64,000 nt of DNA from Candidatus Bathyarchaeota archaeon (lineage in GTDB: Archaea > Thermoproteota > Bathyarchaeia > Bathyarchaeales > DTEX01), in assembly GCA_963714275.1 (NCBI GenBank), contig CAVQNT010000002.1, positions 1 to 64,000 on the forward strand, given 5' to 3'. The stretch is not shown here. Below, a report on this DNA, generated by a model with database tools, continues.

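What the first reader, a model, noticed from the sequence alone, without database searches (positions are those of the whole stretch)
50984..60494. IclR-controlled operon joining an HmfF-like UbiD, a remodelled QPRTase, a molybdopterin-domain protein, an unknown His-rich enzyme and a composite ferredoxin: candidate undescribed anaerobic heteroaromatic-acid pathway
Seen: nine co-oriented genes downstream of an exact TTGACA-17-TATAAT promoter and two operator palindromes, in the order iclR, ferredoxin, unknown, MhpD-type hydratase, TAXI SBP, molybdopterin-domain protein, NadC-like, M24-fold, UbiD. Established: UbiD enzymes with EHLLLGAIPREA/CRYH-type motifs resemble HmfF, the 2,5-furandicarboxylate decarboxylase, and MhpD-family enzymes act on ring-opened 2-oxo-dienoates. 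The aerobic Trudgill-pathway partners (furoyl-CoA synthetase HmfD, Mo-dehydrogenase HmfABC, HmfE) are absent from this window. Inference: this gene set matches no pathway I can name and may encode O2-independent uptake, decarboxylation and ring opening of a furan- or pyridine-type dicarboxylate, with 2-oxoacid products feeding the nearby oxidoreductases.
Basis: partly seen in the sequence, partly recalled or inferred. Interest (0 to 1): 0.85.

Follow-up and report, generated by a model that had tools for sequence, protein, structure and literature searches.

The report, continued
Noticed in passing
G000:C2:1-81000 (window 1-64000 plus L032): The first 80 kb or so of the contig have GC 0.50-0.55 against a genome mean of 0.435. 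They carry housekeeping genes whose seryl-tRNA synthetase is 95% identical to that of G003 but only 38-41% identical to same-genus relatives. A second, frameshifted SerS lies on C6. This is probably a chimeric join or mis-binned end. No tRNA or integrase marks the boundary.
   Followed up: yes
window 43569-44793, 61598-62309 and probably 40549-41952: More frameshifted genes lie outside the finding: the OFOR alpha subunit and PxpB. The C-terminal part of the Lar_N/DUF362 ORF reads like out-of-frame sequence and overlaps the next ORF. Indel errors seem common in this assembly.
   Followed up: partly
window 25467-45741: A dense run of 2-oxoacid metabolism genes: a GlcD-like FAD oxidase plus an Fe-S protein, a cupin-HTH regulator, three separate 2-oxoacid:ferredoxin oxidoreductase sets, a GltD-like Fer4_20/Pyr_redox_2/Fer4 protein (29395-31155), an RraA-like aldolase (36499-37266), a Lar_N/DUF362 protein and an Fe-ADH-like protein.
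   Followed up: partly
L002:8111-9406, and matching ORFs in L004, L015 and L023: A second LarA homologue lies next to the module in four loci (L002 copy: Lar_N 94.7 bits, LarA_C 28.2 bits). Aligned to L. plantarum LarA, it shows K in place of His108 and no His174 or Lys184 equivalents, but it keeps the nickel histidine.
   Followed up: partly
L034+L035 (G234:C141:30001-62000) and L036 (G112:C52): Three ferredoxin/LarA-like pairs lie within about 22 kb and share one NadC-like/MoCF pair. A distant UbiD (27-28% identity) abuts one pair, and an aldehyde:ferredoxin oxidoreductase lies nearby.
   Followed up: partly
L037, L043, L044, L045: The ferredoxin partner lies in one open frame behind a GltD-like NAD(P)H/FAD/Fe-S module, giving 669-706-aa open frames.
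   Followed up: partly
window 53440-53787: A 348-nt gap without an ORF of 80 aa or more on the operon strand lies between the NadC-like and M24-fold genes. The matching gap in L012 is 142 nt. No Rfam match.
   Followed up: no
window 34000-36500: A low-GC stretch (0.42 in a window averaging about 0.52) without any ORF of 150 aa or more and without an Rfam match.
   Followed up: no
window 57432-58783: Contigs of two runs (X1, X7) join 57432 to 58783, which would skip the LarA-like gene. The flanks are short (40-45 letters), depth is low, and what lies between is not known. This may be an artefact.
   Followed up: no
G000, whole genome: No PF02441 (UbiX/CoaC-type flavoprotein) match anywhere, although 14 of 14 control genomes have one. 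No LarC match either, despite four Lar_N-type genes. The genome is 91% complete and rich in frameshifts.
   Followed up: no
window 72-359: Two tRNA-Ser genes (anticodons gct and tga) lie just downstream of the seryl-tRNA synthetase gene, at the contig end.
   Followed up: no
window 55605-56591: The TAXI solute-binding gene has no fused DctQM-type permease beside it in the window, unlike L011, L014 and L024. The nearest transporters are the MFS gene and a TctA/TctC pair.
   Followed up: no
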